From Candidatus Omnitrophota bacterium (GTDB taxonomy: Bacteria > Omnitrophota > Gorgyraeia > Gorgyraeales > Gorgyraeaceae), in NCBI GenBank assembly GCA_043822665.1, contig JBDRBM010000050.1:22038-86037 (forward strand): a stretch of DNA of 64,000 nucleotides, written 5' to 3'. Below the pieces are notes generated by a model that made no database searches, was not told the origin of the DNA, and saw nothing but the letters and a program-made list of their open reading frames with translations. Position 1 is the first letter of the stretch; every line of letters begins with the position of its first letter. Of the stretch, positions 39,101 to 58,019 are shown piece after piece. The translations under genes and the position numbers were made by a program.

Positions 39101-39242
39101 AAGTTGCCCTTGTTGCCTCAAGATAATTAGTCGCGGCCTTTAATTCAAGCCGCATTGTAAAGGCAAAGGAAACCGCCATTATGCCTGTAACAGCCAGTAC
39201 ACTTACAACCAGTATTAAAGCGATACCCTCATTATTTTTCAT
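36132..39242 (-). CDS. Giant GspK/PilX-like minor pseudopilin (1036 aa) with a large central insertion.
   Basis: N-terminus GIALILVVSVLAVTGIMAVSFAFTMRLELKAA matches the T2SS-K family. The C-terminus has the GspK helix-hairpin-helix (GRININTASKKVLNVLPGI…). The central ~700 aa contain three repeats of a W-x-W…G-Y-Y module. Confidence 0.6.
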   Translation of the reverse strand: MKNNEGIALILVVSVLAVTGIMAVSFAFTMRLELKAATNYLEATRATYLAEAGIDYAQAVLKEDDRKIDSFEDKWYTVFTGSDIDNDGDGENDSKWIYIYDDAGDAVGRYAVLVRDETSLLNINIANTHNQSPLKLTEGWTPYELDLKQFLTFFNLADSEKVYEGIINHRYGLDGGPGEAGVDDNQNQRALGSDGIDNNADGLIDEAGEGIDEPMEFVPDSPYGDDNPFQTPFELAKIGSMAKDKFNNIYAYITSYSVDKNTDVEGRLRENINFMKASSLAILMEESGCTDPFQKAVNIIDACDEDFSQSIVTKLYSGIYAINRGPIGDWIWKNGHYESDVSKGDPLVISWMNLPEGEYYIGVFGVGDELIGDIDINGMTQSSVKHGEILRIGPVLFENRILNLTITNSEEDRACYFSRLELYPRLGQEGFSSLEVRGIEGIRINEIMVKPVIARGTFSGQEPGGDWHWQGGYYQNNEPNGGRTGEGIWIWKDIPEGTYYVKLFGSGSGQAIGDVEIDGSHSRNMLDGDLFGAGKTVKVSRGKLTISVQNNLTTGSTSFRSIELSQEPDGECIELVNLTPREVDLGGWSIEGPSREGWPASIPLGTIIQPHGHLALCVDKDDSREGIGNNGISFLSIWGKESSVELHFLRSITPDSDLLSNDVFPGGNIITLKDPMGHIVDTEEYFSGNVSFNISMEKSDPSYILDSNSNGVPDNWYSSKAEKGATPGLPNDNDGMEEEIEEEIIEHDVTEVNVKNKNFSSPGEIAYVALSLKEWEQISMSDVAKIADRLTVFGLRLEAEGHIAEGEEGGWKLVQRAFPYTDHFESGKVDSIGMWRWESKDGLKDGYYVLRIFGEEEEEISASLHLADGTWSAFTPFLTPGPDGSILFGNIEVGTGSPISTPKGTLELKIKNTSKTGAAHFDFIRLDPVNSMDGRININTASKKVLNVLPGINEQVADSIISNRVFGNKNNLGFGIGDLVSADALGSEESDKKLRFKQISNLITVHSDVYRIIVTGQVMEKDKVLSEKKIWAVFER

Positions 39243-44596: not shown

Positions 44597-45151
44597 TTAC
44601 TTAGGAAGTGTTATATCTTTTTGGGCCTGGTATCTGCCCTTACGGTCAGAATAAGAAACCTCGCACTCCTTATCTGACTCAAAGAATATCACCTGCGCAA
44701 TGCCTTCATTCGCGCAAATCCGCACCGGGGCCGGCGAGGTATTGCTTATCTCCATTGTAATGTAACCTTCCCAGCATGGCTCCAGAGGAGTGACATTTAC
44801 TATAACCCCTATCCTGGCATATGTGCTCTTGCCTGTACAGAGACACATAACATTTCTCGGGATTTTTAAGTATTCGAAAGAACGCGCGAGGATAAATGAA
44901 TTAGGCGGAATTACGCATACGCTGCCTTTAAAGTCACTGAATAAATCTGGATTTACTTTCTTGGGATCTATGGCAGTTGAAACCGCGGTACCTTTAAACA
45001 GCTTAAATTCGTCTGCTGCCCTAATATCATAACCGTAACTTGAAAGGCCGTATGAGATATTATTATTTCGTATCTGTCCTGATTCAAATGGCCTTATCAT
45101 TCCGTGTTCAAGCGCCATTCTCTTAATCCACGCGTCCGGCCTTATAGACAT
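44597..45151 (-). CDS. dcd: dCTP deaminase.
   Basis: 184 aa with the MSIRPD…WI…G…I…P N-terminus and a dUTPase-like fold sequence. Confidence 0.85.
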
Positions 45152-45155
45152 GACT

Positions 45156-48100
45156 TCAACATTTGGAATATCCGCAGGAACGACAGACTACGCAGCCTTC
45201 TTCGTGCCTTAACGCGGCTCCGCAATCAGGGCACACGCCTACCACATTCCCCAGCTTATCCTCTATCATTGTATGAGGAGATCTCTTTTCAGATTCCTCT
45301 TTTTTATCGTGCATCTTGCCGTTTCCAAGTCTCAGCTCAAGGACCCTTGAAATCGCATCCGCGCATGAAAAGATCCTGCCGCTCTTTTCCCATGAAGGTG
45401 ACGGACAGCGTATTCCGCGCAACTGGTCCACTATCTTCTTGTTCTCCACGCCTGAGCGTAATGCCAGCGAAACAAGCCTTCCTATCGCCTCAAGCTGACT
45501 TGCCGCGCAGCCTCCAGCTTTGCCCATCTGTATAAACACCTCGAAAGGCATACTATTATCGTCGACATTTATAGTAATATAAAGGTTGCCGCATCCTGTC
45601 ATGACCTTCGTAGTGGTGCCTGTAGTTACAACAGGCCTGGGTCTTGGCGCCACGAATTTCTTATCCCTGACCTCTAAGGGTTTTTCTGTTGTTTCTTTCT
45701 TGTTTGAACTTATATTCAACACCTGCTCCTCCCTGCTTTTATCCCTGTAGATTGTTACGCCCTTGCAGCCTAATTTATAGGCCAGCATATATACTTCCCT
45801 CACATCCTCCATAGCCGCCTCATGATGAAAATTTACTGTCTTCGAAACCGCGTTGTCAGTGTGCCTCTGAAAAGCAGCCTGCATCCTTATGTGCCACAGC
45901 GGGGCTATGTCATGTGAAGTAACAAATACCTTTTTATATTTTTCAGGCACCTCTTCTATGCCCTCTAACGAGCCTTTCTCAGCGATTTCTTCCATAAGCT
46001 TCCTTGAATAAAAACCTTCTCTTTTCGCAATTTCTTCAAACAGGGGATTTACCTCAACCAGCTTGTCATTATCCATAACATTCCTGTAGAAAGAAATGGC
46101 AAACAACGGTTCTATTCCGCTCGAAACATTCGAGATAATAGATATGGTCCCTGTTGGAGCAATGGTAGTCAATGTAGCATTCCTTCTCGGGCTTGAGTTA
46201 TCTTCCGCAAGCTTACTGTCATTATAGGAGGGGAACGCGCCTCTGGACGCCGCAAGCTCTTCGGACTTCTTCCTGGCCTCTTCGTTAATAAAACTCATCA
46301 CTCTCTCAGCCAGATCAACTGCCTGGTCGCTATTATAAGGTATCTCAAGATGTATCAATAGATCGGCCCACCCCATGATACCAAGGCCTATTTTTCTATT
46401 TGTCCTTGTCATTTTCCTTATCTCATCCAGAGGGAACTTATTCATATCTATTACGTTATCCAGAAAATGAACACCGAGATGCACAAGCCTTTTCAAATTG
46501 TCCCAGTCAATATCTTTTTTGCCATTGCCGGAGACTATCTTTGAAAGATTTATAGAGCCTAAATTACAGCTTTCAAAAGGCAAAAGAGGCTGCTCGCCGC
46601 AATCGAGTGAAACAAAACCGTTTGTAACAAAAGTGTAAGTCTTGGGTTCTGTAAGATCGTAAACGTCTTCTTTTCCTATCTTTTCTATGTTTTCTATCTT
46701 CTCTTCAAAACTGTCACTATAATATTTCTTAGCATAAAACTTGCTGACCTTTCCTTTATGCTTATCGCACAAAAAACCTATACTTGCAAAAAATTTAATA
46801 ACCGACTCTCGCGAAATCTCCAATTCATAACATATCCCATCTAATAGATATTTCTTTATCTCGCCATTTTTCGTAACATAGTCAAATCCGTATCTTTCCT
46901 TTCTGCTTCTATCGTATATTCGAGATTTAATTCCTAGATTTAAAAGCAACAATTGAACTCCTTTTAGTAATTTCAAAGATTTGGCTGTTAGTCTAACGTA
47001 AGAAGAATAATTTACTTTGAAATTAACCGTCCCATCAGCGCTAAATAACCCCTGCAGAAATCCTATCACCGCTTCTTTTGATGCCGTATAGATTGATTCA
47101 GGGACAGTCTTTTCGTCCGATCGCCCTGTCTTAACTCCTAACATTCTGAAGAATTCGACGAAATATCTGCTATGGTACGAAAGATGAGTAACGCCATTTT
47201 CTCTTTCTACTTCTTTTATGTCATATCCATACCAATTATTAAGAATGGGCTTTAGGTAATTCAATATTTCTTTATCGCTCCTGCTAAACGTTAAGCCCAG
47301 TCTGCAATTTTTATCTCCTTCTCTTAACCAGCCATCACCTACGATCCAGCCTAACACCTGTCCTAACTCCTTGCTCCACGAAGAAGGCATGTCAAACTTA
47401 TATCTCCTTCCGTTTTCTCCCATAAAATTATTTATCACGGGAAACGACAGGCTTTTATCTTCGTTGAACTTTCCCTCGCCTGATTGCATTAATATCCTAT
47501 GGTAATTTTTTTTCAGGGCCGTCAGCTTAACCCACCCTTCCTGAGTCATTATCTTGTGGTCAGCCGTCGCTTGTAATTCATAACCGGATTTAGTAACTAA
47601 CCTGAAAACGTCCTTATGCCCGGTAAAAAAAGCCTTACTTATAGAATTAAAGGTAATACCTGTTTTCGGATCTGCCTTTACCAACAAACCACCGCATTCT
47701 TTTTCAGAATATAAAATTTCCTGAACCCTGTCATCGGTACCAATACGAACCCCCCCCTGCGCAAAAGATTTGACAATATCCCTCATTCTCATAAGGCCGT
47801 GTTCGGTACAAACCAGAGTATCTCCGGTAACGCATGGATTAGTCGATTCGATATCGCCTAATTTCGGAGTAGGATTGTCCTTATTGATCCTGTCTATAAA
47901 GACAATGCCTGGTTCGCCGTTCTTCCATGCCTTTTCAACAATCAACTCGAATACATCTTTTGCCTTTAACTTCATGGTCTCCTTTTTCGTATGCGGGTCG
48001 ATCAGGGGATATTCTTTATCCTCTATGACCTTATCCATAAAATCTTCTGTAATGGCAACTGATATATTAAAATTTGTTATCTCCTTGTCGTTTTCTTTGC

Positions 48101-51100
48101 ATTGAATAAACTCGAGGATGTCAGGATGATCTACCCGTAAAATACCCATGTTGGCCCCACGACGTGTGCCCCCCTGCTTCACGGCCTGCGTGGCCGCGTT
48201 AAATACCTTCATAAAGGAAACCGGGCCGCTCGAAACTCCGCCTGTAGAACGGACAACACTGTTTTTCTGCCTCAATCTTGAAAAATTAAATCCTGTACCA
48301 CCGCCTGAATTGTGAGAAACAAAGCCGTTTGCCAGATAACAATGTTTAAACGGAATGGTTAAATCATAGGTCTCCATTATTCCGACGGGACTCACATTAG
48401 AAATCCTTGCAAAATAGCAATCTTCTTTCAAGAGAGTTTTAAAAAATTGCGGAACAACTGAATTGCTTTCGATTGTTGAAACAAGTCTTTGTCTTGTCAG
48501 TTCTCTGGGCTTAGCGATTCTGTTTATAATATCATCGAATAAGCGGCGAGCTTCATACCTCTCCGGAATGCTGTCAAGGTCGTCATACCATAACCTAATC
48601 CGGCCTTTCTGGTGCGGGATGACTTCGGCTCGCTTAAAGATTTCCGAAGAAATAATACCATCCAATCTTTCATTCTTTCTTTTAAGTAAAAATCCGACTT
48701 TTTCTCTGAAATTTAAAAATCCTTTTTTACTGCATATAGAAACTTGAAAACTATTAGTGGATCCAAAATATTTTCTACGCGTAGGTATTCCTATATAGAG
48801 CATAAGGGTTTGCAGTTCTTTGGAGAGCATCTCGGAACTTGTAGTTAAAGTTATATGGCCTGACTTACGGATACAACCATCAGTCGAAAACAAACCTCTC
48901 AGAAAAGCGCCTATAATATCTTCTGATGCTCCAAAAATAACTTCAGGAATTTTAACTTCCCGCGCCAAAGGTTTACTTATACCCAGAAATTCAAACCACT
49001 GCTTTATTATCGTGCTTAAAATCGCGACTTCATAATTTCCATTGGAAGTAAGGCTAAATGTTGCTTTTCGCTTGAATACTATTTTTGACAATCTATCGAT
49101 TATATCGACCATCTCTCTATCGTCTTTGCCAACCGAAAACCTGATACCGTCTCTGTGTTTAGAGCCGTCACCTATATAAATACCGATAAGCCCTGCCAGC
49201 TCTCTTGTCATCTTAGCGGGAAGTCTCACCTTTTGAGCCCTAAACTGACCTGAATTTAAAACGGGTCTGGGTTTGTATTTAAAAGACGGCAAGCTATTAT
49301 CTCCGCCTTCTAATTTACTATAAGGTTTCATCACCACCCAATCGCCCTTTTTAAGGCCTCCTATCTCCCGCCAAATATAATCGCCATTTTCAGCTACAAC
49401 TAAAAGCTTATGCTCAGCAGTTCCTCTGATCGTATATCCCCTGTCTGTAACGACTTCAAAAACAATCTGTTTTCCATTATTATAAACTTCCTTTGCCGGG
49501 AAATATCCTTCGTCTGTTTGTATCTGCATACCCCTTTTTATATCTTTTATTCTCTTTATGCCGCTTTTGGTTTTAACCATTGTGTCCGGAGTTAAACATT
49601 TATGTATCATAGCGGTGTTCTTTATCGCGTCAAATATAGACTCCATGGAATCATCTACAGGCAGGACAAAGCAATTATGAACACTGACCATATTTGCGCA
49701 GTATGAATGGTCTTCCTCAACCTCAAGATTATAGACTTCATCTTGATAAGGCTGTTTTATTATTTCGGTGATAGGCGTCAAAAGCGTATCTCCGCGAACT
49801 ACAGTCCGAATATAACTTTTGCCATTATGGGTGATATCGGTATCTAAAAGTTCGCTCATAAATTTGGTGCCGCTTTCTCCGCTAACTGTGCATCTGACTG
49901 GCAAAGTTCTACCAAGTTTAGGCATTGATTCAAAATTAAGTGCAGCAAAATGTCCGGCTCTCATAACCAACTGCCATGCTGCATAAACTAAATTCATATT
50001 ACACATAACAAGCCTTGTGGAGAAATTATTGCCATTTTTAAACGTACAGCTATCTCCACGAAACATTCCTGCCAGGAGACCTTTTTGTTTTTCTATAGGA
50101 AGGAACATAATCCACGAGGGTATCTTTTTTGATGCATAGCCTGTTCCAAATAAATTTTCAAAAAATCCAGCCACTATTTTTGAATGAAATCTTATCGATA
50201 ACCATCGCTGGTCAGGGGAGTTAGTTTCCTCAATACTGGAACTAAGTCTGAATTTTTCCTTCATTATCTTAAGAATATCTTCGCAATAATCTCTTTCTTT
50301 TTCAGAGAAAACAAAGCGTAAGGTAGTATTATCACTAACACATCCTTCGGATAGGTAGTATCCAAACAATCTCATTAGATCCGCATCGATCTCTATTCTG
50401 CTTCTAATAGGCGTAACCTGCTGGGAAATCTTTCCTGACCTATTCCTATTTTGAATATACACACTACCGTCTCTTCTAACTGTGCGTCTTATATCAGTAT
50501 TTTTTCCGTATAAAACACCGTTCCTACCAATAAATTTGTTATCATTAATAAAATCCAGTATTTTAATATCCCTAACGTCAACAACCTCTTTAGGAAAGCT
50601 TACTGCTATATAATCTCCCACAGACAAATCCTTTATTTGAATCCACATAGGATTATCGCTGCTTCCCTTTTTAACCGCGAGTATAGGATGTTCTCCTGTT
50701 ACCTTAAGGGTCTCGGTAGGAAGTTTATAGGCGTTAAGGATATAAATTTCATTTGATTTCCTGACAAATATTTTAGTTATCTCCCTGAACCTGTTTTTAT
50801 GGGTTAATACCAATTCTCCATTCTTTATTTCGGATATTCGCTTCGGTCCAGATTCAGTTATAACAATCTGGTCCGGCGTAAAGCAAGCTGACAACTGGCC
50901 CAGGTCCTTACCCGCGTTCATAAGAGTGGGGCTATTGGGCATGAATTCAAAATTTGACATAATACTGTAAAAATTTTCTTTTGTTATTTTGACTTCCCTG
51001 TCATTGGCTTCATAGATCCTGTCTGCCTCAGCTATGTGTAACGCGACCCTTCTGAACATTTCCTCAGGGGTCTCAATAATCTTCCCGTCTTTGTCTTTTT

Positions 51101-51212
51101 TGAGGTATCTTTTTTCAAGGACCTTAAGGCAGTTTTCGGAGATCTTCAATTTCTTTTCGTTGTTTTCTTTGACCTGCATCAAAATCCCCTTTCTGGTTGG
51201 TAGGAAATCCAT
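45156..51212 (-). CDS. nrdJ: Class II (adenosylcobalamin-dependent) ribonucleotide reductase NrdJ interrupted by three inteins.
   Basis: The extein (~773 aa) carries NrdJ N-terminal consensus, LSAC|[17 protein letters not shown], the ESTNP|CGEQPLLP active site and a C-terminal Cys4 Zn ribbon. Three in-frame Hint + LAGLIDADG insertions interrupt it. Confidence 0.85.
46602..47834 (-). mobile_element. Intein 3 (411 aa) inserted at the NPCGE active site, LAGLIDADG type.
   Basis: Starts CVTGDTLV… after STNP and ends …TNGFVSLD before the +1 Cys of CGEQ. The C-terminal residue is apparently Asp, not Asn. The motifs are LGWIVGDGW and [13 protein letters not shown]. Confidence 0.6.
48309..49598 (-). 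mobile_element. Intein 2 (430 aa) with LAGLIDADG homing-endonuclease domain.
   Basis: Starts CLTPDTMV… and ends …ANGFVSHN before +1 Ser of the [10 protein letters not shown] extein motif. The motifs are [13 protein letters not shown] and [13 protein letters not shown]. Confidence 0.7.
49674..50885 (-). mobile_element. Intein 1 (404 aa) with LAGLIDADG homing-endonuclease domain.
   Basis: Starts CFTPDQIV… after LSA and ends …MVSVHN before +1 Cys. The LAGLIDADG-type motifs are LFGYYLSEG and LLAGMFRGD. Boundaries were verified codon-by-codon against the nucleotide text. Confidence 0.7.
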
Positions 51213-51332
51213 TTAAGAATAAAAATAAGTATATCACTTAAATTTTTCATGTCAAGCCAAAAAATACTATATATTGGTATTTTTTTTCGGTTTATAGCTA
51301 TATGTTGTGGTTCTACTAACTTGCGCCTGCAA

Positions 51333-52088
51333 CTAGATTATCTCGACGGTGTCACTGGGAAGCCATCCCCTGAGGTCTTTTGAAAGGTCTATTTCATACC
51401 ACCCCTGGCCCTCTTTTACCACCCTGATTTCCGCGCCTTCATGCAATGTAAACTGCAGAAGATAATCCTCTTTTGGTCCGCTGCGCACATCTATCTTCTC
51501 AGATGTGACAACAGCGTATCTTGTATAATTTTCAGTGTGAATCTTTAACACCAGGAAAATCAAAAAAGTAATCAACGCCGCGGCGGATGCCCCAGCAGCA
51601 TAAAACAATACCCTTCTCTTTGTAATAAAAAATATAGAAAATATTAAAAAAGCTATAATACTAAGATAGACTGAAGAAACAATGACCGTCAGCTGGTTTA
51701 TATTCATCCTGTCATAAGGCAGTAGAATTACTTTTATAAGAAATCCTTTTTCAGGTTGTTCTATCTTATCAACTGCTGAGGCGCGGGCTAGTTTTAAATT
51801 ATGTTGTATGTCCCTGCCACCCGGATCCAATCTCAACGCCCTTTTGTAATTCACTATGGCCTTCCCTGTCTTTTTTATCTTAAAATAAGAATTACCGAGA
51901 TTATAGTATACCTCAGGGCTAACCCTGTCCATTTTCAAAAGCATTTCGTAAAGCGATATAGCGTTTTTGTAATCTTCATTTTCATAATTTAGGCCCGCCT
52001 TCCTGTATAGCTCTTCGGCGGACTGGGCAAAAAGCGGTACAGTTGACGCGAAAAAAGTAAAAATAAAGAATATTAATATCTTTTTCAT
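51333..52088 (-). CDS. BatE-like TPR + C-terminal SH3b protein.
   Basis: Signal peptide and TPR repeats, then a TM segment and a C-terminal bacterial SH3-like domain (…GWYEIDLS…GWLPSDTVEII). Terminal gene of the Bat operon. Confidence 0.6.
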   Translation of the reverse strand: MKKILIFFIFTFFASTVPLFAQSAEELYRKAGLNYENEDYKNAISLYEMLLKMDRVSPEVYYNLGNSYFKIKKTGKAIVNYKRALRLDPGGRDIQHNLKLARASAVDKIEQPEKGFLIKVILLPYDRMNINQLTVIVSSVYLSIIAFLIFSIFFITKRRVLFYAAGASAAALITFLIFLVLKIHTENYTRYAVVTSEKIDVRSGPKEDYLLQFTLHEGAEIRVVKEGQGWYEIDLSKDLRGWLPSDTVEII

Positions 52089-53959
52089 GCCCGTTTCTCC
52101 AGCTCTGTAATTATCTCAGACGCCCCTTGAAGAGACCTCTGCATATCTTCCCTGTTAAATTTACCGGACGCGAACCTCGCCATGTCACAGACATCAAAAA
52201 GGCCGCTAAGTTTTTTTATATTCTCTCCGGAATAACCCTTTTCCGCCAGGCGTTGTTCAAGAATATCCTTTGTGATCGAGGGATGAGGTATATTCAATTT
52301 GTCAGCTACATATTCTATAACTGCCCTGTATATCTCGGCATAAAACGCATTGACGTCATTTTTCAGCATAATATTTTTTGCCGCCTTAAGCCTTTTCCCT
52401 GCTGTGCCTTTTGCGCGGCGTGAACGCGCATAACCCACATCTGTCCTCAATCGTTCTTTGTGAATCTCATATATATAAAAGAATACCAATAGCAATAGCG
52501 GGAAAACATTAAATCCTATAAATATTCTATTCTTATAAAGAAATGAATTTTTCGGACCAAAATGAGGCATGGAAGTCTTTATATACGCAATGTCTTTTTT
52601 AAGCAGCTTGACCTCTTCTTTTGTCAAACCTGGAAATAAAACAATGCTTTCAGGCGCGGGTTGTTCTTTTGATTTTGTCGAGGTTATGCTTATAGGCCCG
52701 GCCTTTTTCTCGACGTACCTTTTATCTACAGGGTCAAAATAGGAATATCTTATCGGACCTATGATAAAGGTACCTGGTTTCTTTGGTATGACAACCTTTT
52801 CAAAGATCTTATCCCCCTCTACGACATAATCTATCTTTGAGATATTCTCAGAGCTTCCTGAATCATATAACTTCATATCGTCTATCTCCGGCAATTGAGG
52901 GGATGATATGGTCTTTATGTTACCCCTGCCGTTTATCTTTATCTTAAGAGTTACCGGCTGATTTTCCTCCACGCTATTTTTATCCACATCTGCCATGATA
53001 TCATAACCACCGACATCGCCCTTGAAATCCTGCGGCTTACCCTGTTCCGGCAGGGGAAGGATCTCTAATTTTATAGGCTCTGTCGTAAGTATAATGGGTT
53101 TCCCCGCGCGAAACATGCTGAAGGGGTCCCTATCAAAGATGTCAAACGGGCTCCTTGAGAACATCTTTTGCAGGTCTTCAATGCTTGCCTCAAGCCTGGC
53201 AGGGCCTATAGTAAACTCTCCCGGGCCTGTTGCGAAAAGAGCTGTTTTAATCTCTGTCACAAGGTATCTTGTCCCGTTTATCTCCTTATAATATTTCTTC
53301 TGCGGAGGCATGTCTTCTAACCAGAAGCCAGTGGTTGAAGGCGGGTTGTATATGGGATTCTGGAATAGATCTACTGACTGGTAAAATGCGAATGTAAGGG
53401 TAATCTGTTCGTTTACATATGCCCTGAGCTTATCTACATAGGCCTCTATAAACAATTCTTTGCCGGTCTGTTGGTCGTGCTCCTGGCCTTGTCCGTAACC
53501 TCCCTGCGGCCGTGGAGGCTGTGGATAATTGTATGATGGGGTTTGCGCTGAATTACTTGTCCCTCTCGGAGTGACTTTTATGCTTATAGGCCCGGCAGAA
53601 TATGTCTGGCCTTTGTAATCAATAGTAAAAGGCCCTAATGTATAACCTCCTGTATCATTAGGCACAAGTATATAATTAAACGCGACTGAACTTGTGACCT
53701 GGCCGTTTATAATAGAGATATTCTGCGATCTGCCTGAAGAATAGGCGATAAATCCATTCATGACCGGAATCTTAGGCTGTGGGATGTTCGAGATATTACC
53801 GTTTACTGTTATGGTAAGCGTGAGTTGTTCGTCAAGCGCAATCTCCTGCCTATCCACATCAGCAGAAATAGATATATCATCCGCGTAAGAATACGCGGCA
53901 ATAGACAAAAACAATAGAAACGCTATAAAAAGATTAACTTTTAACTTTAAACTTTTCAC
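52085..53959 (-). CDS. BatD-like oxygen-tolerance-family protein.
   Basis: 624 aa. Signal peptide, large beta-rich periplasmic region, TM and cytoplasmic tail, with BatD-like N-terminus. Confidence 0.6.
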   Translation of the reverse strand: MKSLKLKVNLFIAFLLFLSIAAYSYADDISISADVDRQEIALDEQLTLTITVNGNISNIPQPKIPVMNGFIAYSSGRSQNISIINGQVTSSVAFNYILVPNDTGGYTLGPFTIDYKGQTYSAGPISIKVTPRGTSNSAQTPSYNYPQPPRPQGGYGQGQEHDQQTGKELFIEAYVDKLRAYVNEQITLTFAFYQSVDLFQNPIYNPPSTTGFWLEDMPPQKKYYKEINGTRYLVTEIKTALFATGPGEFTIGPARLEASIEDLQKMFSRSPFDIFDRDPFSMFRAGKPIILTTEPIKLEILPLPEQGKPQDFKGDVGGYDIMADVDKNSVEENQPVTLKIKINGRGNIKTISSPQLPEIDDMKLYDSGSSENISKIDYVVEGDKIFEKVVIPKKPGTFIIGPIRYSYFDPVDKRYVEKKAGPISITSTKSKEQPAPESIVLFPGLTKEEVKLLKKDIAYIKTSMPHFGPKNSFLYKNRIFIGFNVFPLLLLVFFYIYEIHKERLRTDVGYARSRRAKGTAGKRLKAAKNIMLKNDVNAFYAEIYRAVIEYVADKLNIPHPSITKDILEQRLAEKGYSGENIKKLSGLFDVCDMARFASGKFNREDMQRSLQGASEIITELEKRA

Positions 53960-53990
53960 TTTAAACTACCACCCCTTACGCTCGTGACAG

Positions 53991-54080
53991 GTAAGATGCT
54001 GCGACTACATTTTAGGCTGTAGCTGCAGCGCCTTGCGCTGCTTCTAAAAAGGCAATCCCTATACTCTAAATTTAACTTTT
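53991..54080. repeat. Composite dispersed repeat, copy 3 (5'-truncated A plus E) between batC and batD.
   Basis: GTAAGATGCTGCGACTACATTTTAGGCTGTAGCTGCAGCGCCTTGCGCTGCTT, followed by CTAAAAAGGCAATCCCTATACTCTAAATTTAAC. Confidence 0.7.
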
Positions 54081-54087
54081 AACCAAA

Positions 54088-54888
54088 TCACCAATCCTTC
54101 TCCACTCTGTACCTGCCTTCGGCTGGTTGATTCCTTAATTCTTTTTGCAGGTCCTTTTCGTCGTCCTTCAGGGCATCAAGAAGCCTGACAGCATCTTCCT
54201 TTGACATCTCGCCGTCTTTCGATTCCTGTTGTCTTTGTTCCTCTTCCTTGACAGGCTTTTTCTCTTTTTGCTCACCCTCTTCTGTTTTTTCTTCTTTGGC
54301 CTGCGATTCCTGCTGTTCCTTTCCCCCTTCTTCTTCCGCTCCCTGTGCCTGCTGTTGCTCTTGCGCCTGAGATCTCTCTTCTTTAGCCTCCTCTTTATCT
54401 TTCTGATTCTGCTCTTGCGGCTGGGACTGCTGAGATTCTTCCTTTTGCGGATTCTCTTTTATCTTTTTCCTTACAAATTCTATGTTATATTTTGCGTCTT
54501 CATCGTCAGGGTTTATATCCAGGGTTTTTTTATAATACTCGATTGCTTCAGGCAGTTTACCCATCCTGTAAAAAGAATTCCCTATATTATAATACGTTTT
54601 TGCGTGAATTTCAGCATCTTTTGAGCTTAAAGATTTCTCATATTCTCCAGACGCGTCTTCATATTTTTTCTGCCGATAGAGGGCGCTTCCTATATTATAA
54701 TGCAGCTCTTCTTTATCAGGAGAATCTATCTGCGCGTCGCGCCATTTTAAAAGCGCCTCATCTATCCTGCCCTCTTTATACAGTTTTACACCTTCTTTAT
54801 TTTTCTTTGCAAGAGGGCCCTGCCATATCCACCCGACGCTGGAAAGATAAAACAAGCCTGTTAGCGCTATTACAAAAAATCTCTTCAT
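54088..54888 (-). CDS. BatC-like TPR protein with Glu/Gln/Lys-rich C-terminal tail.
   Basis: TPR repeats (…YYNIGNSFYRMGKLPEAIEYYKKTLDINPDD…) followed by the low-complexity acidic tail. Confidence 0.6.
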   Translation of the reverse strand: MKRFFVIALTGLFYLSSVGWIWQGPLAKKNKEGVKLYKEGRIDEALLKWRDAQIDSPDKEELHYNIGSALYRQKKYEDASGEYEKSLSSKDAEIHAKTYYNIGNSFYRMGKLPEAIEYYKKTLDINPDDEDAKYNIEFVRKKIKENPQKEESQQSQPQEQNQKDKEEAKEERSQAQEQQQAQGAEEEGGKEQQESQAKEEKTEEGEQKEKKPVKEEEQRQQESKDGEMSKEDAVRLLDALKDDEKDLQKELRNQPAEGRYRVEKDW

Positions 54889-55886
54889 CTCTTTCTTCTG
54901 TCTCCTATGGCAGACTCAACACACAACAATATCAGCGCTATTGCCAAAAAATACTGAAACCTGTCCTCATATTGCGTAAAAAGCCTGTTGGAAAGTTCTT
55001 TCTTTTGCATCTTGCTGATCTCGTCGTATATCTTATCGAGTTCAAACTCGCTCGGCGAGGCATTATAGTATTTACCCTCTGTAACAAGCGCTATTTTCTG
55101 AAGCGTGGCATCGTCAAGTTTAGACAAGACCACATTACCATCCTTATCTTTTTTGTGGCCTGTAATTCTGCCGTTCTCATCTACTACGGGTATAGGCTCC
55201 CCGCTCTTTGTGCCAATCCCTATGGTATACACAATCACGCCTTGTTTTCTTGCTTCTTGAGCAGCCTCAACAGGATTTGTCTCATGGTCCTCCCCGTCAG
55301 TCATAACGATCAGGATCTTATATTTCTTTTCCTTTTTAATAAATGACCCTGTCGCGGTCCTTATGGCATCGCCAATGGCTGTGCCGGGCTTCGGCATCAT
55401 GCCCGCCTCTACGATGCTGAGAAACATCTTTGCCGCATTGTAGTCTAATGTGAGCGGGCACTGGACAAAACTATCACCTGAAAATGTAAGCATGCCGACT
55501 CTGTCCCCTTTTAATCTATCGATAAGCGACGATATCTCAAGCTTTGCCTTTTCTAAACGATTCGGCTTTATGTCCTCGGCAAGCATGCTTGCCGAGGTAT
55601 CTATCGCTATAATCACATCCACGCCTTGACGCCTGGTCATCGCAAGCCTTGTGCCTATCTGCGGCCTTGCAAGGCTTATTACTAGAAATCCTGCGGCACT
55701 AATCAATAAAACCCTTTTCCATCTCTCCTTTACAACGCTTTTTGATAGAGAAAGTTTCTCCAGAATGCCCCTCGCCCCGAATCTGTCCATGCTTTGCCTT
55801 TTCTTTGCCGATACAAAGACAAAGAACGCTATAAGGATAGGAAGCAAAATAAGAAGATTTAAATATACGGGCGAACCCCAATGCAT
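54885..55886 (-). CDS. BatB: von Willebrand factor A (VWA) domain membrane protein.
   Basis: N-terminal TM pair and VWA MIDAS motif (DTSASM…). Confidence 0.8.
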   Translation of the reverse strand: MHWGSPVYLNLLILLPILIAFFVFVSAKKRQSMDRFGARGILEKLSLSKSVVKERWKRVLLISAAGFLVISLARPQIGTRLAMTRRQGVDVIIAIDTSASMLAEDIKPNRLEKAKLEISSLIDRLKGDRVGMLTFSGDSFVQCPLTLDYNAAKMFLSIVEAGMMPKPGTAIGDAIRTATGSFIKKEKKYKILIVMTDGEDHETNPVEAAQEARKQGVIVYTIGIGTKSGEPIPVVDENGRITGHKKDKDGNVVLSKLDDATLQKIALVTEGKYYNASPSEFELDKIYDEISKMQKKELSNRLFTQYEDRFQYFLAIALILLCVESAIGDRRKR

Positions 55887-55950
55887 ATGGCTGTTTCCTA
55901 GTCGATTTGTTTGTGTAACGTGTAACGTGTAACGTGTGATTTTTCAAAAA

Positions 55951-56940
55951 TCATGGTATTTTCCTAAAGACTGTATTAGCCAAGGTTGTTTCCAGAAGTA
56001 ATATTATAAGCGCGGGCAAGAGAAGGTATCCCGCGAGTTCGGTATAATTCGCGTATTCCTTTGTCTCTATTTTCGTTTTCTCGAGCTTGCCTATGGTTTC
56101 GTAAATCTCCCTGAGGCCTTTCTCATCCTTTGCCCTGAAATACATGCCGCTTGTTTCATCCGCTATCTGTTTAAGCAATACCTCGTCTATTTCTGTATTC
56201 ATTTGCACATATCTCTTGCCAAAAATAGGGTCTTCTACTGGATAAAGCGCGCCTCCTGGCCTGCCTGCTCCTATTGTATATATCTTTATACCCAGCGCTT
56301 TCGCGGCCTTTGCCGCAGTCAAAGGGTCAATCTTACCCGCGTTATTGATCCCGTCTGTAAGGAGTATTATGACCTTGCTTTTAGCAGTAGAATCCCTGAG
56401 TCTATTCACTGAATTCGCAATCGCGGTGCCTATAGCAGTGCCGTCTTCTATCATGCCTATATGGATTTTATCAAGCAGGTTCAGCAATACCCCGTAATCA
56501 AGTGTCAGAGGACATTGTGTAAAGCTAAACCTTGAAAAGACCACCAATCCTATCCTGTCATTAAGCCTGGATTTTATAAATTCCTCCATGACCTCTTTTG
56601 CGGCGCCCAGCCTATTCTGCGGTTTAAAATCCTCTGCCTTCATGCTCCCGGATGTATCAAGTGTAAGCACAATGTCTATACCTTCTGTTATAATCTCTTC
56701 CTCTTTCTGACCCGCCTGCGGCCTGGCCATGGCAAGGATAAGAATAAAAAGCACTGTCATTCTCAGGATCATCGACGCATGCCTGTATCTGGCGCGGAAC
56801 CCAGGCCTTATGCCTTTGAACACTGATATATCTGAAAATACAATGCCTGAATCCTTGGCCAGACTACGCCTGAAATAATCCCAGACAAATAACGGGATAA
56901 CACTTAATAATACTAGGAATAATGGGTTGGCAAATCGCAT
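55951..56940 (-). CDS. BatA: VWA domain membrane protein.
   Basis: VWA MIDAS motif DTSGSM. N- and C-terminal TM segments. Confidence 0.8.
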   Translation of the reverse strand: MRFANPLFLVLLSVIPLFVWDYFRRSLAKDSGIVFSDISVFKGIRPGFRARYRHASMILRMTVLFILILAMARPQAGQKEEEIITEGIDIVLTLDTSGSMKAEDFKPQNRLGAAKEVMEEFIKSRLNDRIGLVVFSRFSFTQCPLTLDYGVLLNLLDKIHIGMIEDGTAIGTAIANSVNRLRDSTAKSKVIILLTDGINNAGKIDPLTAAKAAKALGIKIYTIGAGRPGGALYPVEDPIFGKRYVQMNTEIDEVLLKQIADETSGMYFRAKDEKGLREIYETIGKLEKTKIETKEYANYTELAGYLLLPALIILLLETTLANTVFRKIP

Positions 56941-57044
56941 ATTATGTTAATGTCAAATGACAAAGCGCAAAATTCAAAATAAATTCAAAGCACAAATAAT
57001 AAAACTAAACATTTTGGAATTTGAATTTGGCCCTTCGACGCTGC

Positions 57045-58019
57045 TCAGGGCCAATCCTGAGCGGAGTCGAAGGATTGGATTTGTTTTGTGCTTTTAATTT
57101 TGTCATTTGTCATTTTCTCCATAGATATTTCTATTATCTCTTTCGCCTTGCTGTAAATCTCCTCTATTTCCTTTTGGTCCGGTATATATTTCGCGAATTT
57201 CACAAGGTCACAATCTTCCAGAAAATCCTTGATCTTATCCGCGGGCTGTCTCTGGATCTTTTTCGCGCGCATCTCCTGACAGATCTCCCATGTAGTCATG
57301 TCCAGGGCAAATATCCTGAATCTTCCTTCAATATATTTACGCATTATATCTGAGATCTCTATGTAATACTCCTTGATCATCCCTTTTTCTATCAGTTTTT
57401 TCTCCAGCAAGGCCTGTAATTCTTCCATTGCAATATCCTCTGGCGGCCTTAACGGTATGGCAGGCATTGATTCGATACGTCTTTTTCTCTTAAAATATAT
57501 AAATCCCGAGACCGCTCCCAGCGCCAGCAGTAATAGTATAATCAGTAACAGCGCGGGAAAACCCTCTCTTATTTCAGCAGGCCCTTTGAGTGGCCTTATG
57601 TCATCTTTGTCGTTAGGGCCTTTTTTTACACTTTCGACTTTTATCTTTATCTCTTCCGAGAATATCTTTTTCTCATTACCTGCCTGGTCTTTGTATTTTA
57701 CTGTCACAGGCGGAATCGTAAAGTCGCCTGTTGTAAACGTGGTCACTATGTAAGTGGACCTGGATATCCATTTATTATCCTTGGCCTTTTTCGGTTCTTC
57801 TACGCGATAATCCTTTACCTCAAACTCTCCGAGGTTTTCGCCCATCACCTGCGGCTCCACCTCAATGCCATCGTCATATTCCACAATAACTTCATATCTA
57901 ATTCTGTCTCCGATAGTTATAGTGTCCTTATCAACCTTTACATCAAGCTTAACAGGCTCGGCAAACACGGCACTATTCGCGATTAATAAAAAGATTGCTA
58001 TCAGAAAATATTTTTTCAT
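57045..58019 (-). CDS. Bat-operon-associated membrane protein (DUF4381-like).
   Basis: Signal peptide, beta-rich N-terminal region, a single TM segment (ALLLIILLLLALGAVSGFIYF) and a cytoplasmic tail. Lies between the DUF58 and batA genes. Confidence 0.45.
   Translation of the reverse strand: MKKYFLIAIFLLIANSAVFAEPVKLDVKVDKDTITIGDRIRYEVIVEYDDGIEVEPQVMGENLGEFEVKDYRVEEPKKAKDNKWISRSTYIVTTFTTGDFTIPPVTVKYKDQAGNEKKIFSEEIKIKVESVKKGPNDKDDIRPLKGPAEIREGFPALLLIILLLLALGAVSGFIYFKRKRRIESMPAIPLRPPEDIAMEELQALLEKKLIEKGMIKEYYIEISDIMRKYIEGRFRIFALDMTTWEICQEMRAKKIQRQPADKIKDFLEDCDLVKFAKYIPDQKEIEEIYSKAKEIIEISMEKMTNDKIKSTKQIQSFDSAQDWP

What the first reader, a model, noticed from the sequence alone, without database searches (positions are those of the whole stretch)
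45156..51212. B12-dependent ribonucleotide reductase carrying three LAGLIDADG inteins (62% of the ORF is intein)
The 2018-aa ORF encodes a ~773-aa NrdJ extein interrupted at three conserved sites. These are the C of LSAC|FVLPV (radical-transfer Cys region), before S of [13 protein letters not shown], and inside the NPCGE catalytic motif. Each insert has Hint blocks (N-terminal Cys; penultimate His-Asn in two of them) plus two LAGLIDADG motifs, so each is potentially an active homing endonuclease. Triple intein load in one essential gene is notable and is a useful marker of the lineage's mobile-element exposure.
Basis: seen in the sequence. Interest (0 to 1): 0.6.

Follow-up and report, generated by a model that had tools for sequence, protein, structure and literature searches.

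The report
Three-intein B12 ribonucleotide reductase gene
An Omnitrophota bacterium's vitamin-B12-dependent ribonucleotide reductase gene is interrupted by three self-splicing, endonuclease-carrying inteins at well-known insertion sites; this is a real and heavy but ordinary load of a known mobile element, and two of the three show signs of recent lateral spread.

Summary
ORF 45156..51212 (-) is intact at 2018 aa, though the true start is probably M12 at 51179. It contains three in-frame inserts of 404, 430 and 411 aa, together 62% of the ORF. Removing them gives a 773-aa protein (762 aa from M12) that matches the NCBIfam NrdJ equivalog end to end. It also aligns without a break to Thermotoga maritima NrdJ across all three junctions.

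Each insert has the Hint splicing blocks and two LAGLIDADG motifs with conserved acidic residues.

- **Sites:** they are LSA|C (redox-pair Cys, not a radical-transfer Cys), K|SGGG, and NP|CGE (the thiyl-radical Cys). The last is the most frequently used RNR intein site in the literature.
- **Intein 3:** it ends Leu-Asp and lacks the F-block and penultimate His. This is a recurrent variant at that site.
- **Relatives:** in the closest Omnitrophota clade, 50 clusters have no intein, 21 have one, 4 have two and none has three. Three to five inteins do occur in NrdJ elsewhere.
- **Recent spread:** inteins 3 and 1 are far closer at synonymous sites to alleles in other lineages (dS 0.17 and 0.41) than the flanking exteins, which are saturated. 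Intein 3 also has an apparent co-conversion tract. dN/dS in the endonuclease domains is about 0.13-0.16.

Verdict: a new member of a known kind, of modest interest.

The parts
45156..51212 (-). nrdJ precursor ORF. It is 2018 aa plus stop as the longest ORF. The probable true start is the ATG at 51179 (M12), giving 2007 aa.
   Evidence: ORF; orthologues start at MQVKENN, with an RBS at 51185-51192.
50886..51212 (-). Extein segment E1 (aa 1-109). It holds the RNR all-alpha N-domain and ends ...GQLSA.
49674..50885 (-). Intein 1 (404 aa), at site LSA|C. It runs from Cys1 (CFTPDQIV) to ...SVHN, followed by +1 Cys, which is the homologue of T. maritima C134. Block B is VTGEHP at 50685-50702. The LAGLIDADG motifs lie at 50343-50378 ([12 protein letters not shown]) and 50049-50084 ([12 protein letters not shown]).
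49599..49673 (-). Extein segment E2 (25 aa, [25 protein letters not shown]), lying between inteins 1 and 2.
48309..49598 (-). Intein 2 (430 aa), at site K|SGGG. It runs from Cys1 (CLTPDTMV) to ...VSHN, followed by +1 Ser. Block B is GTAEHK at 49407-49424. The LAGLIDADG motifs lie at 49164-49199 ([12 protein letters not shown]) and 48876-48917 ([14 protein letters not shown]).
47835..48308 (-). Extein segment E3 (158 aa), from [13 protein letters not shown] to ...GDIESTNP.
46602..47834 (-). Intein 3 (411 aa), at site NP|CGE. It runs from Cys1 (CVTGDTLV) to ...GFVSLD, an atypical Leu-Asp end. The +1 Cys is the thiyl-radical Cys (T. maritima C322). Block B is ATADHK at 47553-47570. The LAGLIDADG motifs lie at 47331-47366 (…GWIVGDG, D167) and 47031-47069 (…LFSADG, D267).
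   Evidence: The AlphaFold2 model has pLDDT 91.9 and matches HEN-bearing inteins.
45159..46601 (-). Extein segment E4 (481 aa). It holds [16 protein letters not shown], the rest of the barrel, the TSCPD domain and the C-terminal cysteine-rich domain (45159-45233).
   Evidence: The CRD is described in PMC5704485.
51226..51307 (-). Putative control region. It has two NrdR-box-like decamers, CAACATATAG (51298-51307) and CAATATATAG (51267-51276), 31 bp apart. A -35 hexamer TTGACA and a -10 hexamer TATACT follow.
   Evidence: The arrangement is conserved upstream of nrdJ in L001 and L003-L005. Assignment to NrdR rests on the published consensus as I recall it.
44597..45151 (-). dcd (dCTP deaminase) immediately downstream on the same strand. 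It is probably co-transcribed with nrdJ.
   Evidence: The synteny is kept in L001 and L003-L005.

Best explanation
This is the nrdJ gene of a Candidatus Omnitrophota bacterium. It encodes an adenosylcobalamin-dependent class II ribonucleotide reductase of the type that carries a C-terminal cysteine-rich domain. Three non-allelic, full-size inteins have invaded it, each made of a Hint splicing domain with a nested LAGLIDADG homing endonuclease.

The gene is translated as one precursor of about 2000 aa. Each intein then excises itself by the class 1 pathway:

1. An N-S acyl shift occurs at the intein's Cys1.
2. The +1 residue attacks: Cys for I1 and I3, Ser for I2.
3. The C-terminal residue cyclises: Asn in I1 and I2, Asp in I3.
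4. A final acyl shift restores the peptide bond.

Splicing restores the redox-pair Cys, the Gly-rich SGGG motif and the thiyl-radical Cys. The enzyme therefore cannot be active until all three inteins are out.

The freed inteins act as site-specific endonucleases. They cut intein-less nrdJ alleles at the same three sites, and repair of the break copies the intein in (homing). I3 and I1 reached this lineage, or left it, much more recently than the host genes diverged. I2 looks older or vertically inherited.

Shown here: the anatomy, family membership, site identity, conservation, selection and discordant divergence. Inferred: actual splicing, DNA cleavage and the direction of transfer.
For: - **Contiguous extein:** the spliced product matches NF006417 end to end and aligns to 1xjk across all three junctions.
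- **Family thresholds:** Pfam Intein_splicing and LAGLIDADG_3 are above cutoff for each insert.
- **Splicing residues:** the Cys1, block-B T..H and terminal residues are at least 95% conserved in 28, 34 and 83 alleles. So are the endonuclease acidic residues (I1 E180/D278, I2 D144/D240, I3 D167/D267).
- **Fold of I3:** the model (pLDDT 91.9, pTM 0.91) matches the TliVMA intein, PI-PfuI (the P. furiosus RNR intein), 2cw7 (PI-PkoII) and PI-SceI.
- **Independent origin:** the three inteins are only 22-24% identical to one another.
- **Orthologous loci:** loci with the same neighbours, TPR/SH3 upstream and dcd downstream (BatD further upstream wherever the contig extends that far), carry 0, 1 or 2 inteins.
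- **I3 discordance:** I3 versus the L001 allele is 94.6% identical in nucleotides and 90% at third positions, with dS 0.17. The exteins are 75-83% and 45-61%, with dS above 1 or saturated. Fisher p = 5e-48.
- **I3 flank:** the 14 codons upstream of the junction are identical at synonymous sites that differ in the other orthologues.
- **I1 discordance:** I1 versus L003 has third-position identity of 79.5% against 48%, and dS 0.41 (p = 7e-26).
- **Selection:** dN/dS is 0.17 for I3 (endonuclease domain 0.13), 0.19 for I1 (0.16) and about 0.08 for I2.
- **Literature:** the site N-terminal of the thiyl-radical Cys is the most frequent RNR intein site (PMC2677866). C-terminal Asp or Gln can cyclise, and the G:6 and F:13 His are dispensable in some inteins (PMC4031507).
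Against: - No experiment shows splicing or cleavage.
- I3 lacks three residues normally used in step 3 (Asn G:7, His G:6, His F:13), so its splicing could be slow or conditional.
- I2 shows no sign of recent movement: third-position identity is 50% against 46% for the exteins (p = 0.13), so its endonuclease may no longer home.
- The source is probably a metagenome assembly. The mosaic identity pattern around I3 cannot be checked against reads here.
- The allele samples come from searches capped at 120 listed hits, and the first search was biased toward intein-bearing proteins.
Confidence: 0.9

Rival explanations
1. The inteins still splice, but one or more of the endonuclease domains is no longer an active homing enzyme. 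This is the late stage of the homing cycle, so the elements would now be vertically inherited passengers.
For: I2 diverges from its nearest alleles as much as the exteins do (dS about 2.2; third-position identity 50% against 46%, p = 0.13). Intein and extein identities correlate strongly for the site-109 and site-134 families (r = 0.90). The Pfam LAGLIDADG_3 score for I1 is low (28.4 bits).
Against: The catalytic acidic residues are at least 95% conserved in all three families. dN/dS in the endonuclease domains of I1 and I3 is 0.13-0.16. I1 and I3 show much lower dS than their exteins, and I3 has an apparent co-conversion tract. The same clade is polymorphic for presence and absence at all the sites.
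Confidence: 0.25
2. Splicing is conditional, and the inteins act as post-translational switches on dNTP synthesis. Examples would be redox-gated splicing through Cys1/Cys+1 disulfides at the two catalytic cysteines, or slow Asp-dependent C-terminal cleavage of I3.
For: I1 and I3 use the enzyme's own catalytic cysteines as +1 nucleophiles. I3 has a non-canonical step-3 apparatus. A review notes that disulfide-switched inteins exist and that variant C-termini can be slow (PMC4031507). The gene sits next to an aerotolerance (Bat) operon.
Against: Nothing in the sequence demonstrates regulation. Insertion at catalytic residues is the general rule for inteins and is explained by the conservation of homing sites. 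About two thirds of the closest relatives manage without any intein.
Confidence: 0.08
3. The three-intein arrangement is an assembly chimera of co-occurring strains that each carry fewer inteins, or the gene is a non-functional pseudogene.
For: The source is probably a metagenome-assembled contig. Related strains with 0-2 inteins co-exist in public data. No database protein has this exact combination. The inteins have lower GC3 (0.33-0.38) than the exteins (0.48-0.54).
Against: A 6-kb frame stays open in DNA of about 40% G+C with all catalytic residues intact. Each intein is 6-28% diverged in protein from its nearest known allele, so none is a copy of a sequenced strain. Low GC3 is usual for mobile inserts. 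Multi-intein NrdJ genes on long contigs are common.
Confidence: 0.04

Closest known systems
Pyrococcus RNR (RIR1) inteins, including PI-PfuI (PDB 1dq3). These are inteins with LAGLIDADG endonucleases in an archaeal class II RNR.
   Same: The host enzyme family and the bifunctional Hint plus LAGLIDADG architecture are the same. I3 scores 144.5 bits on the intein region of the Pyrococcus NrdJ model NF006207. Its model matches 1dq3 with Foldseek E = 2e-18. The Pyrococcus gene also carries more than one intein.
   Different: The host here is bacterial (Omnitrophota). Sequence identity is low, 14% in the structural alignment. I3 ends Leu-Asp. I did not verify whether the Pyrococcus inteins occupy exactly these sites.
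Trichodesmium erythraeum ribonucleotide reductase gene with four inteins (Liu, Yang & Meng 2003, as cited in PMC2874743).
   Same: Both are bacterial RNR catalytic-subunit genes carrying several non-allelic inteins. This sets the precedent for three or more inteins in one RNR gene.
   Different: The Trichodesmium gene also has group II introns. Nothing here points to introns: the ORF is continuous and Rfam found nothing. I could not compare the sites or sequences because the paper is not held.
Inteins with C-terminal Asp or Gln instead of Asn (Amitai, Dassa & Pietrokovski 2004; the CIV RNR intein), reviewed in PMC4031507.
   Same: I3 ends in Asp at the RNR thiyl-Cys site. In the 83-member allele family (82 database alleles plus I3), Asp (31), Gln (24) and Asn (28) termini are all common, and each co-varies with the F-block and the penultimate residue.
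   Different: Whether I3 splices as those tested inteins do is untested. The Leu-Asp plus T-Y-T-F combination was seen here only in sequence.
Omnitrophota nrdJ orthologues with 0-2 inteins (P0121 none; P0004 I3-type only; P0011 I1-type only; P0018 I2-type only; P0001-P0003 I2+I3 types).
   Same: The extein clade is the same (77-88% identity), as are the insertion sites. Every locus fetched for these (L001, L003-L005) keeps the TPR/SH3-nrdJ-dcd neighbourhood. Allele identities are 94% for I3, 85% for I1 and 72% for I2.
   Different: None of the 75 clusters in this clade has three inteins, and the combination 109+134+292 was not found in any of the 223 proteins retrieved.
Heimdallarchaeaceae NrdJ proteins with four or five inteins (P0027, P0028, P0031; 2337-2495 aa).
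   Same: The enzyme type is the same, and sites 109 and 292 are occupied by related inteins. The I3-type intein is 58-59% identical and ends Leu-Asp or Val-Asp.
   Different: These are archaeal hosts with an even higher load and further sites (138, 160, 181).

Membership tests
Class 1 intein (Hint/protein-splicing domain) | In-frame insert whose removal restores a contiguous, conserved host protein | tested here: met
   The spliced 773-aa product matches NF006417 at 4-758 of 759 positions (1252.8 bits). It aligns through all three junctions to 1xjk.
Class 1 intein (Hint/protein-splicing domain) | N-terminal nucleophile (Cys/Ser at A:1) and block B Thr-x-x-His | tested here: met
   The three N-termini are C110 (CFTPDQIV), C539 (CLTPDTMV) and C1127 (CVTGDTLV). 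The block-B motifs are TGEH, TAEH and TADH. All are at least 95% conserved among alleles.
Class 1 intein (Hint/protein-splicing domain) | C-terminal His-Asn (G:6-G:7) followed by a Cys/Ser/Thr +1 residue | tested here: met
   This row covers I1 and I2 only; I3 is tested in the next row. I1 ends HN|C and I2 ends HN|S. Both match TIGR01443 intein_Cterm (26.5 and 26.8 bits; cutoff 15.6).
Class 1 intein (Hint/protein-splicing domain) | C-terminal His-Asn in intein 3 | tested here: not met
   I3 ends Leu-Asp|Cys, has no TIGR01443 hit, and has Tyr in place of the F-block His. This is a documented variant and not an exclusion: Asp and Gln termini can cyclise (PMC4031507), and 31 of 83 alleles at this site end in Asp.
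Class 1 intein (Hint/protein-splicing domain) | Curated profile match (Pfam PF14890 Intein_splicing above gathering score) | tested here: met
   Scores are 43.2, 55.8 and 44.7 bits against a cutoff of 35.8.
Class 1 intein (Hint/protein-splicing domain) | Autocatalytic splicing demonstrated | not testable with these tools
   This needs expression and detection of ligated exteins.
LAGLIDADG homing endonuclease (two-motif, monomeric, intein-nested) | Two LAGLIDADG motifs, each with the catalytic acidic residue | tested here: met
   I1 has GYYLSEG and FRGDS. I2 has IYIGDG and FSTDG. I3 has WIVGDG and FSADG. The acidic residues are at least 95% conserved, and invariant in 49 I3 alleles.
LAGLIDADG homing endonuclease (two-motif, monomeric, intein-nested) | Curated profile match (PF14528 LAGLIDADG_3) | tested here: met
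   Scores are 28.4, 61.3 and 83.7 bits against a cutoff of 22.5.
LAGLIDADG homing endonuclease (two-motif, monomeric, intein-nested) | Fold: alpha-beta-beta-alpha-beta-beta-alpha pseudo-dimer inserted in the Hint domain | tested here: met
   Tested for I3 only. The AF2 model has pLDDT 91.9. The top Foldseek hits are 7qsu, 1dq3, 2cw7 and PI-SceI, and the free-standing I-DmoI matches with TM-score (normalised to target length) of about 0.7. I1 and I2 were not modelled.
LAGLIDADG homing endonuclease (two-motif, monomeric, intein-nested) | Site-specific cleavage of the intein-less allele and homing | tested here: inconclusive
   The support is indirect. I3 and I1 have dS of 0.17 and 0.41 where the exteins are saturated. 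Fourteen flanking codons are identical next to I3. dN/dS is 0.13-0.16 in the endonuclease domains. I2 shows no such signal. Cleavage itself was not tested.
Class II (adenosylcobalamin-dependent) ribonucleotide reductase NrdJ, CRD-bearing type | Equivalog-level profile match over the full length | tested here: met
   NF006417 scores 1252.8 bits (cutoff 961) and TIGR02504 NrdJ_Z scores 765.4 bits (cutoff 399.95).
Class II (adenosylcobalamin-dependent) ribonucleotide reductase NrdJ, CRD-bearing type | Active-site residues: thiyl Cys in the N-P-C-G-E motif, plus the redox Cys pair | tested here: met
   Extein C293 (NPCGE), C110 (LSAC) and C304 (ESCNLG) align to T. maritima C322, C134 and C333. The functional roles come from established knowledge of that enzyme and from PMC2677866.
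Class II (adenosylcobalamin-dependent) ribonucleotide reductase NrdJ, CRD-bearing type | C-terminal TSCPD/cysteine-rich domain | tested here: met
   PF12637 TSCPD scores 80.4 bits. The C-terminus is [25 protein letters not shown]. The domain is described in PMC5704485.
Class II (adenosylcobalamin-dependent) ribonucleotide reductase NrdJ, CRD-bearing type | Adenosylcobalamin-dependent activity | not testable with these tools
   This is inferred from family membership only.

The most novel reading that the evidence does not exclude
The three inteins may not be mere passengers. I1 and I3 use the two catalytic cysteines as splice nucleophiles. I3 has replaced Asn, His G:6 and His F:13 with an Asp-based C-terminal cleavage apparatus. 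Maturation of the cell's B12-dependent RNR could therefore be gated by redox state or pH. That would make splicing a post-translational checkpoint on dNTP supply in this anaerobic, possibly host-dependent Omnitrophota lineage.
Probability: 0.07. Interest if true: 0.55.

Novelty: new member of a known kind. Interest (0 to 1): 0.3.

Why it matters
For annotation, the gene should be called as an intact nrdJ with three inteins and a start at 51179. Several database relatives are instead named "LAGLIDADG family homing endonuclease" or "TSCPD domain-containing protein".

For biology, the locus gives a clean natural example of ongoing intein homing in an uncultivated phylum. Orthologous, syntenic loci carry 0-3 inteins at four sites. 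Two of the inteins show synonymous divergence far below that of their host gene.

For protein engineering, I3 belongs to a well-populated subfamily that ends in Asp and lacks both step-3 histidines. That could be useful for studying or exploiting alternative C-terminal cleavage chemistry.

None of this changes current understanding of inteins or RNRs.

Tried and rejected
- **Rfam scan of the whole window:** no riboswitch or other RNA was found, so there is no cobalamin riboswitch on nrdJ.
- **Other inteins in the window:** a phmmer search of the three inteins against all six-frame ORFs found none outside this gene.
- **Recent duplication of one intein:** rejected, because the three are only 22-24% identical to one another.
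- **Phage vector for I3 or I1:** single-sequence scans of IMG/VR found no close relatives. A profile scan found only distant HN-type inteins (42% identity or less) at the same NP|C site in viral RNR genes. No vector was identified.
- **Primary paper on Asp/Gln-terminated inteins (PMID 14593103):** it is not held. I relied on the review PMC4031507 instead.
- **nrdR gene in the window:** Pfam scans of small ORFs found none.
- **InBase site names (RIR1-a, -b and so on):** they could not be checked. I report the sites by sequence and by T. maritima numbering instead.
- **Exact protein in the database:** it was not among the hits. The best hit is 76% identical, so the source genome could not be named beyond Candidatus Omnitrophota.
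Full report
**1. Observation**

The mechanical ORF list gives one 2018-aa ORF at 45156..51212 on the minus strand. I located the six junction strings and obtained the following segments:

| Segment | Residues | Window coordinates | Length and ends |
|---|---|---|---|
| E1 | 1-109 | 50886-51212 | |
| I1 | 110-513 | 49674-50885 | 404 aa |
| E2 | 514-538 | 49599-49673 | 25 aa |
| I2 | 539-968 | 48309-49598 | 430 aa |
| E3 | 969-1126 | 47835-48308 | |
| I3 | 1127-1537 | 46602-47834 | 411 aa |
| E4 | 1538-2018 | 45159-46601 | |

The inserts total 1245 aa, which is 61.7% of the ORF. The spliced product is 773 aa.

GC3 is 0.33-0.38 in the inserts and 0.48-0.54 in the extein segments.

**2. The host protein**

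The spliced sequence matches the NCBIfam equivalog NF006417 (vitamin B12-dependent ribonucleotide reductase). The score is 1252.8 bits against a cutoff of 961, covering residues 16-773 of the query and positions 4-758 of 759 in the profile. It also matches TIGR02504 NrdJ_Z.

Pfam finds Ribonuc_red_lgN, Ribonuc_red_lgC and TSCPD.

Against solved structures the best match is T. maritima NrdJ (1xjk/1xje, E = 2e-134). The printed alignment runs uninterrupted through all three junctions. Examples are [41 protein letters not shown] against LSACFVVPVGDSIEEIFEAVKEYALITKVGGGVGSNFSELR, and [21 protein letters not shown] against STNPCGEIGLSDYEACNLGSI.

By that alignment:
- Extein C110 corresponds to Tm C134.
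- Extein C293 corresponds to Tm C322.
- Extein C304 corresponds to Tm C333.

From established knowledge of this enzyme, C322 is the thiyl-radical cysteine and C134/C333 are the redox-active pair. The first insertion therefore sits at a redox-pair cysteine, not at a radical-transfer residue. The third sits directly N-terminal of the thiyl-radical cysteine.

The C-terminal [25 protein letters not shown] is the cysteine-rich domain described for most class II RNRs (PMC5704485).

**3. The inserts**

Each insert exceeds the Pfam gathering scores for Intein_splicing (43.2, 55.8, 44.7; cutoff 35.8) and LAGLIDADG_3 (28.4, 61.3, 83.7; cutoff 22.5). NCBIfam's intein-bearing protein models and the intein N- and C-terminal domain models also hit.

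| Feature | I1 | I2 | I3 |
|---|---|---|---|
| First residue | Cys | Cys | Cys |
| Block B | TGEH | TAEH | TADH |
| Last residues and +1 | HN\|C | HN\|S | LD\|C |

PDB sequence searches match the inserts to known inteins and intein endonucleases:
- PI-PkoII (2cw7) for all three inserts.
- The Thermococcus VMA and DnaB inteins for I2 and I3.
- The GyrA intein for I2.
- PI-PfuI (1dq3) for I3.

An AlphaFold2 model of I3, built on 49 alleles, has mean pLDDT 91.9 and pTM 0.91. Its best Foldseek matches are the endonuclease-bearing TliVMA intein (7qsu, E = 2e-21), PI-PfuI from the P. furiosus RNR (1dq3, E = 2e-18), 2cw7 (PI-PkoII) and PI-SceI. The free-standing LAGLIDADG enzyme I-DmoI matches the inner domain.

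The three inteins share only 22-24% identity with one another. They are independent, non-allelic acquisitions.

**4. Are the sites known?**

I aligned the 120 best database hits of the full protein to the spliced extein and mapped every insert of 100 aa or more.

- Site 109 (LSA|C) is occupied in 28 proteins.
- Site 134 (K|S) is occupied in 33.
- Site 292 (NP|C) is occupied in 82.
- Further recurrent sites are 93, 95, 138, 160, 181 and 303.

[quoted passage not shown] It also ranks RNR as the second most common bacterial intein host, with 211 inteins (PMC4760082).

Viral contigs carry HN-type inteins at the same NP|C site, at 42% identity or less to I3.

- Omnitrophota, 57-59% identity.
- Heimdallarchaeota, 55%.
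- Rokuibacteriota, 44%.
- Parcubacteria, 43%.
- Baldrarchaeota, Actinomycetota and Clostridia, 38-40%.

**5. How unusual is three?**

A review calls multi-intein genes rare and cites the four-intein Trichodesmium RNR gene (PMC2874743).

In my sample, five NrdJ proteins have three inteins (P0005, P0007, P0026, P0087, P0093). Two have four (P0027, P0028) and one has five (P0031, Heimdallarchaeaceae). None has the combination 109+134+292.

An extein-only search returned close relatives, all named Candidatus Omnitrophota/Omnitrophica where a name exists. In the clade with at least 77% extein identity there are 75 clusters:
- 50 have no intein.
- 21 have one.
- 4 have two.
- None has three.

The occupied sites in that clade are 292 (9 times), 181 (8), 134 (7) and 109 (5).

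The window's allele is therefore the most loaded in its immediate clade, but it is not exceptional for NrdJ. One caveat applies: the lists are capped at 120 hits, and the first search favoured intein-bearing proteins.

**6. The atypical end of I3**

The 83-member alignment at site 292 (82 database alleles plus I3 itself) splits into three co-varying types.

| Terminal residue | Count | Penultimate residue | F-block |
|---|---|---|---|
| Asp | 31 | Leu/Arg/Val | T-[YL]-[TS]-F (no His) |
| Gln | 24 | mostly His | T-H-S-M |
| Asn | 28 | Ser/His | THSF or SNSF |

I3 belongs to the Asp type, with TYTF...SLD.

A review states that Asp and Gln termini can cyclise to cleave the C-terminal junction. 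It also states that His F:13 and His G:6 are dispensable in some inteins, and that about 5% of functional inteins lack His G:6 (PMC4031507). It cites the primary study, Amitai et al. 2004, which I could not read.

I3 is thus a variant of known type. Its splicing efficiency is unknown.

**7. Evidence that the endonucleases matter**

The catalytic acidic residues are conserved in at least 95% of alleles in each family. They are I1 E180/D278, I2 D144/D240 and I3 D167/D267, and those of I3 are invariant in 49 alleles.

I fetched five orthologous loci:

| Locus | Inteins present |
|---|---|
| L001 | I3-type only |
| L002 | none |
| L003 | I1-type only |
| L004 | I2-type only |
| L005 | I2 + I3 types |

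Wherever the contig is long enough, the neighbours are the same. L001 and L003-L005 all keep TPR/SH3-nrdJ-dcd, and L003-L005 also keep BatD upstream.

Codon-by-codon comparison gave the following:

| Comparison | Intein nt identity | Intein third-position identity | Intein dS | Extein nt identity | Extein third-position identity | Fisher p |
|---|---|---|---|---|---|---|
| I3 vs L001 | 94.6% | 90.3% | 0.17 | 75-83% | 45-61% (dS >1 or saturated) | 5e-48 |
| I1 vs L003 | 87.5% | 79.5% | 0.41 | 71-79% | 46-56% | 7e-26 |
| I2 vs L004/L005 | 72-73% | 50-53% | about 2.2 | 69-88% | 40-68% | 0.13 (vs L004) |

The 14 codons just upstream of the I3 junction are identical between the window and L001. This includes synonymous positions that differ in L002-L005. 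The chance of 14 matching third positions at the background rate is about 8e-5. The pattern is what a co-conversion tract from homing would leave.

dN/dS values are as follows:
- I3: 0.17 overall, 0.13 in the endonuclease domain.
- I1: 0.19 overall, 0.16 in the endonuclease domain.
- I2: about 0.08.

Across alleles, intein and extein identities correlate at r = 0.90 for sites 109 and 134, but only r = 0.53 for site 292. One outlier is P0025, whose intein is 80% identical against 67% for its extein.

Together these results indicate that I3, and less recently I1, moved laterally between Omnitrophota lineages. They also indicate that the endonuclease domains are under purifying selection. I2 shows no sign of recent movement.

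**8. Mechanism (inferred)**

1. The gene is transcribed, probably together with dcd.
2. It is translated into a precursor of about 2000 aa.
3. Three independent class 1 splicing reactions follow. The +1 nucleophiles are Cys, Ser and Cys.
4. The intein is released by cyclisation of Asn (I1, I2) or Asp (I3).
5. The products are active NrdJ and three free LAGLIDADG endonucleases, which target empty alleles.

Two of the +1 residues are the enzyme's own catalytic cysteines, so the precursor must be inactive until it is spliced.

**9. Rivals**

- **Degenerate endonucleases:** plausible for I2 only.
- **Conditional or regulatory splicing:** not excluded, and nothing supports it directly.
- **Assembly chimera or pseudogene:** unlikely, given the intact 6-kb frame, the conserved catalytic residues, and each intein's 6-28% protein divergence from any known allele. 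It cannot be tested without reads.

**10. Verdict**

The finding is a new member of a known kind. The added value is the evidence for recent homing and the annotation fixes.

Noticed in passing
window 51159-51212 (-): The longest-ORF start (51212) is probably wrong. All orthologues begin MQVKENN, which is M12, and a Shine-Dalgarno-like AAAGGGGA lies at 51185-51192. The likely start is the ATG at 51179, giving a 2007-aa precursor and a 762-aa extein.
   Followed up: yes
window 51226-51307 (-): Two NrdR-box-like decamers, CAACATATAG and CAATATATAG, lie 31 bp apart just upstream of a TTGACA/TATACT promoter. They are the only two matches to that decamer pattern (derived from these two boxes) in the 64-kb window. 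The arrangement is conserved, with 30-32 bp spacing, upstream of nrdJ in four orthologous loci. No nrdR gene was found among the ORFs I scanned. The assignment to NrdR rests on the consensus as I recall it.
   Followed up: partly
window 44597-45151 (-) and 51333-58019 (-): nrdJ is followed by dcd (dCTP deaminase). It is preceded by a Bat aerotolerance-type gene set: BatA-like VWA proteins, TPR proteins, BatD proteins and a TPR-SH3 protein. The order BatD-TPR/SH3-nrdJ-dcd is kept in L003, L004 and L005. The shorter L001 shows the same TPR/SH3-nrdJ-dcd core.
   Followed up: partly
P0027, P0028, P0031 (Heimdallarchaeaceae NrdJ homologues, not in the window): These proteins carry four or five inteins. 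Their intein at extein site 181 is followed by Arg (…VHN|RRRGA) instead of Ser, Thr or Cys. That does not fit canonical class 1 splicing. It could mean a shifted boundary, an unusual mechanism or an inactive intein.
   Followed up: no
L003 8415-9402: The Omnitrophota contig that carries the I1-only nrdJ allele has a second gene with an Intein_splicing hit about 2 kb downstream (1042-aa product, cut by the locus end). This suggests that several genes host inteins in this phylum. No second intein gene is present in the window itself.
   Followed up: no
L006-L013, L016, L023 (IMG/VR viral contigs): Viral RNR genes carry HN-terminated inteins at the same xxNP|C(G/S/A/V)E thiyl-cysteine site. They are 42% identical to I3 or less.
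   Followed up: partly
window 28096-30723 (-) and 36132-39242 (-): Elsewhere in the window there is a secretin-family outer-membrane protein (875 aa). There is also a 1036-aa protein with a helix-hairpin-helix (HHH_3) domain and a lamin-tail-domain match just below Pfam's cutoff. Neither is related to the finding.
   Followed up: no
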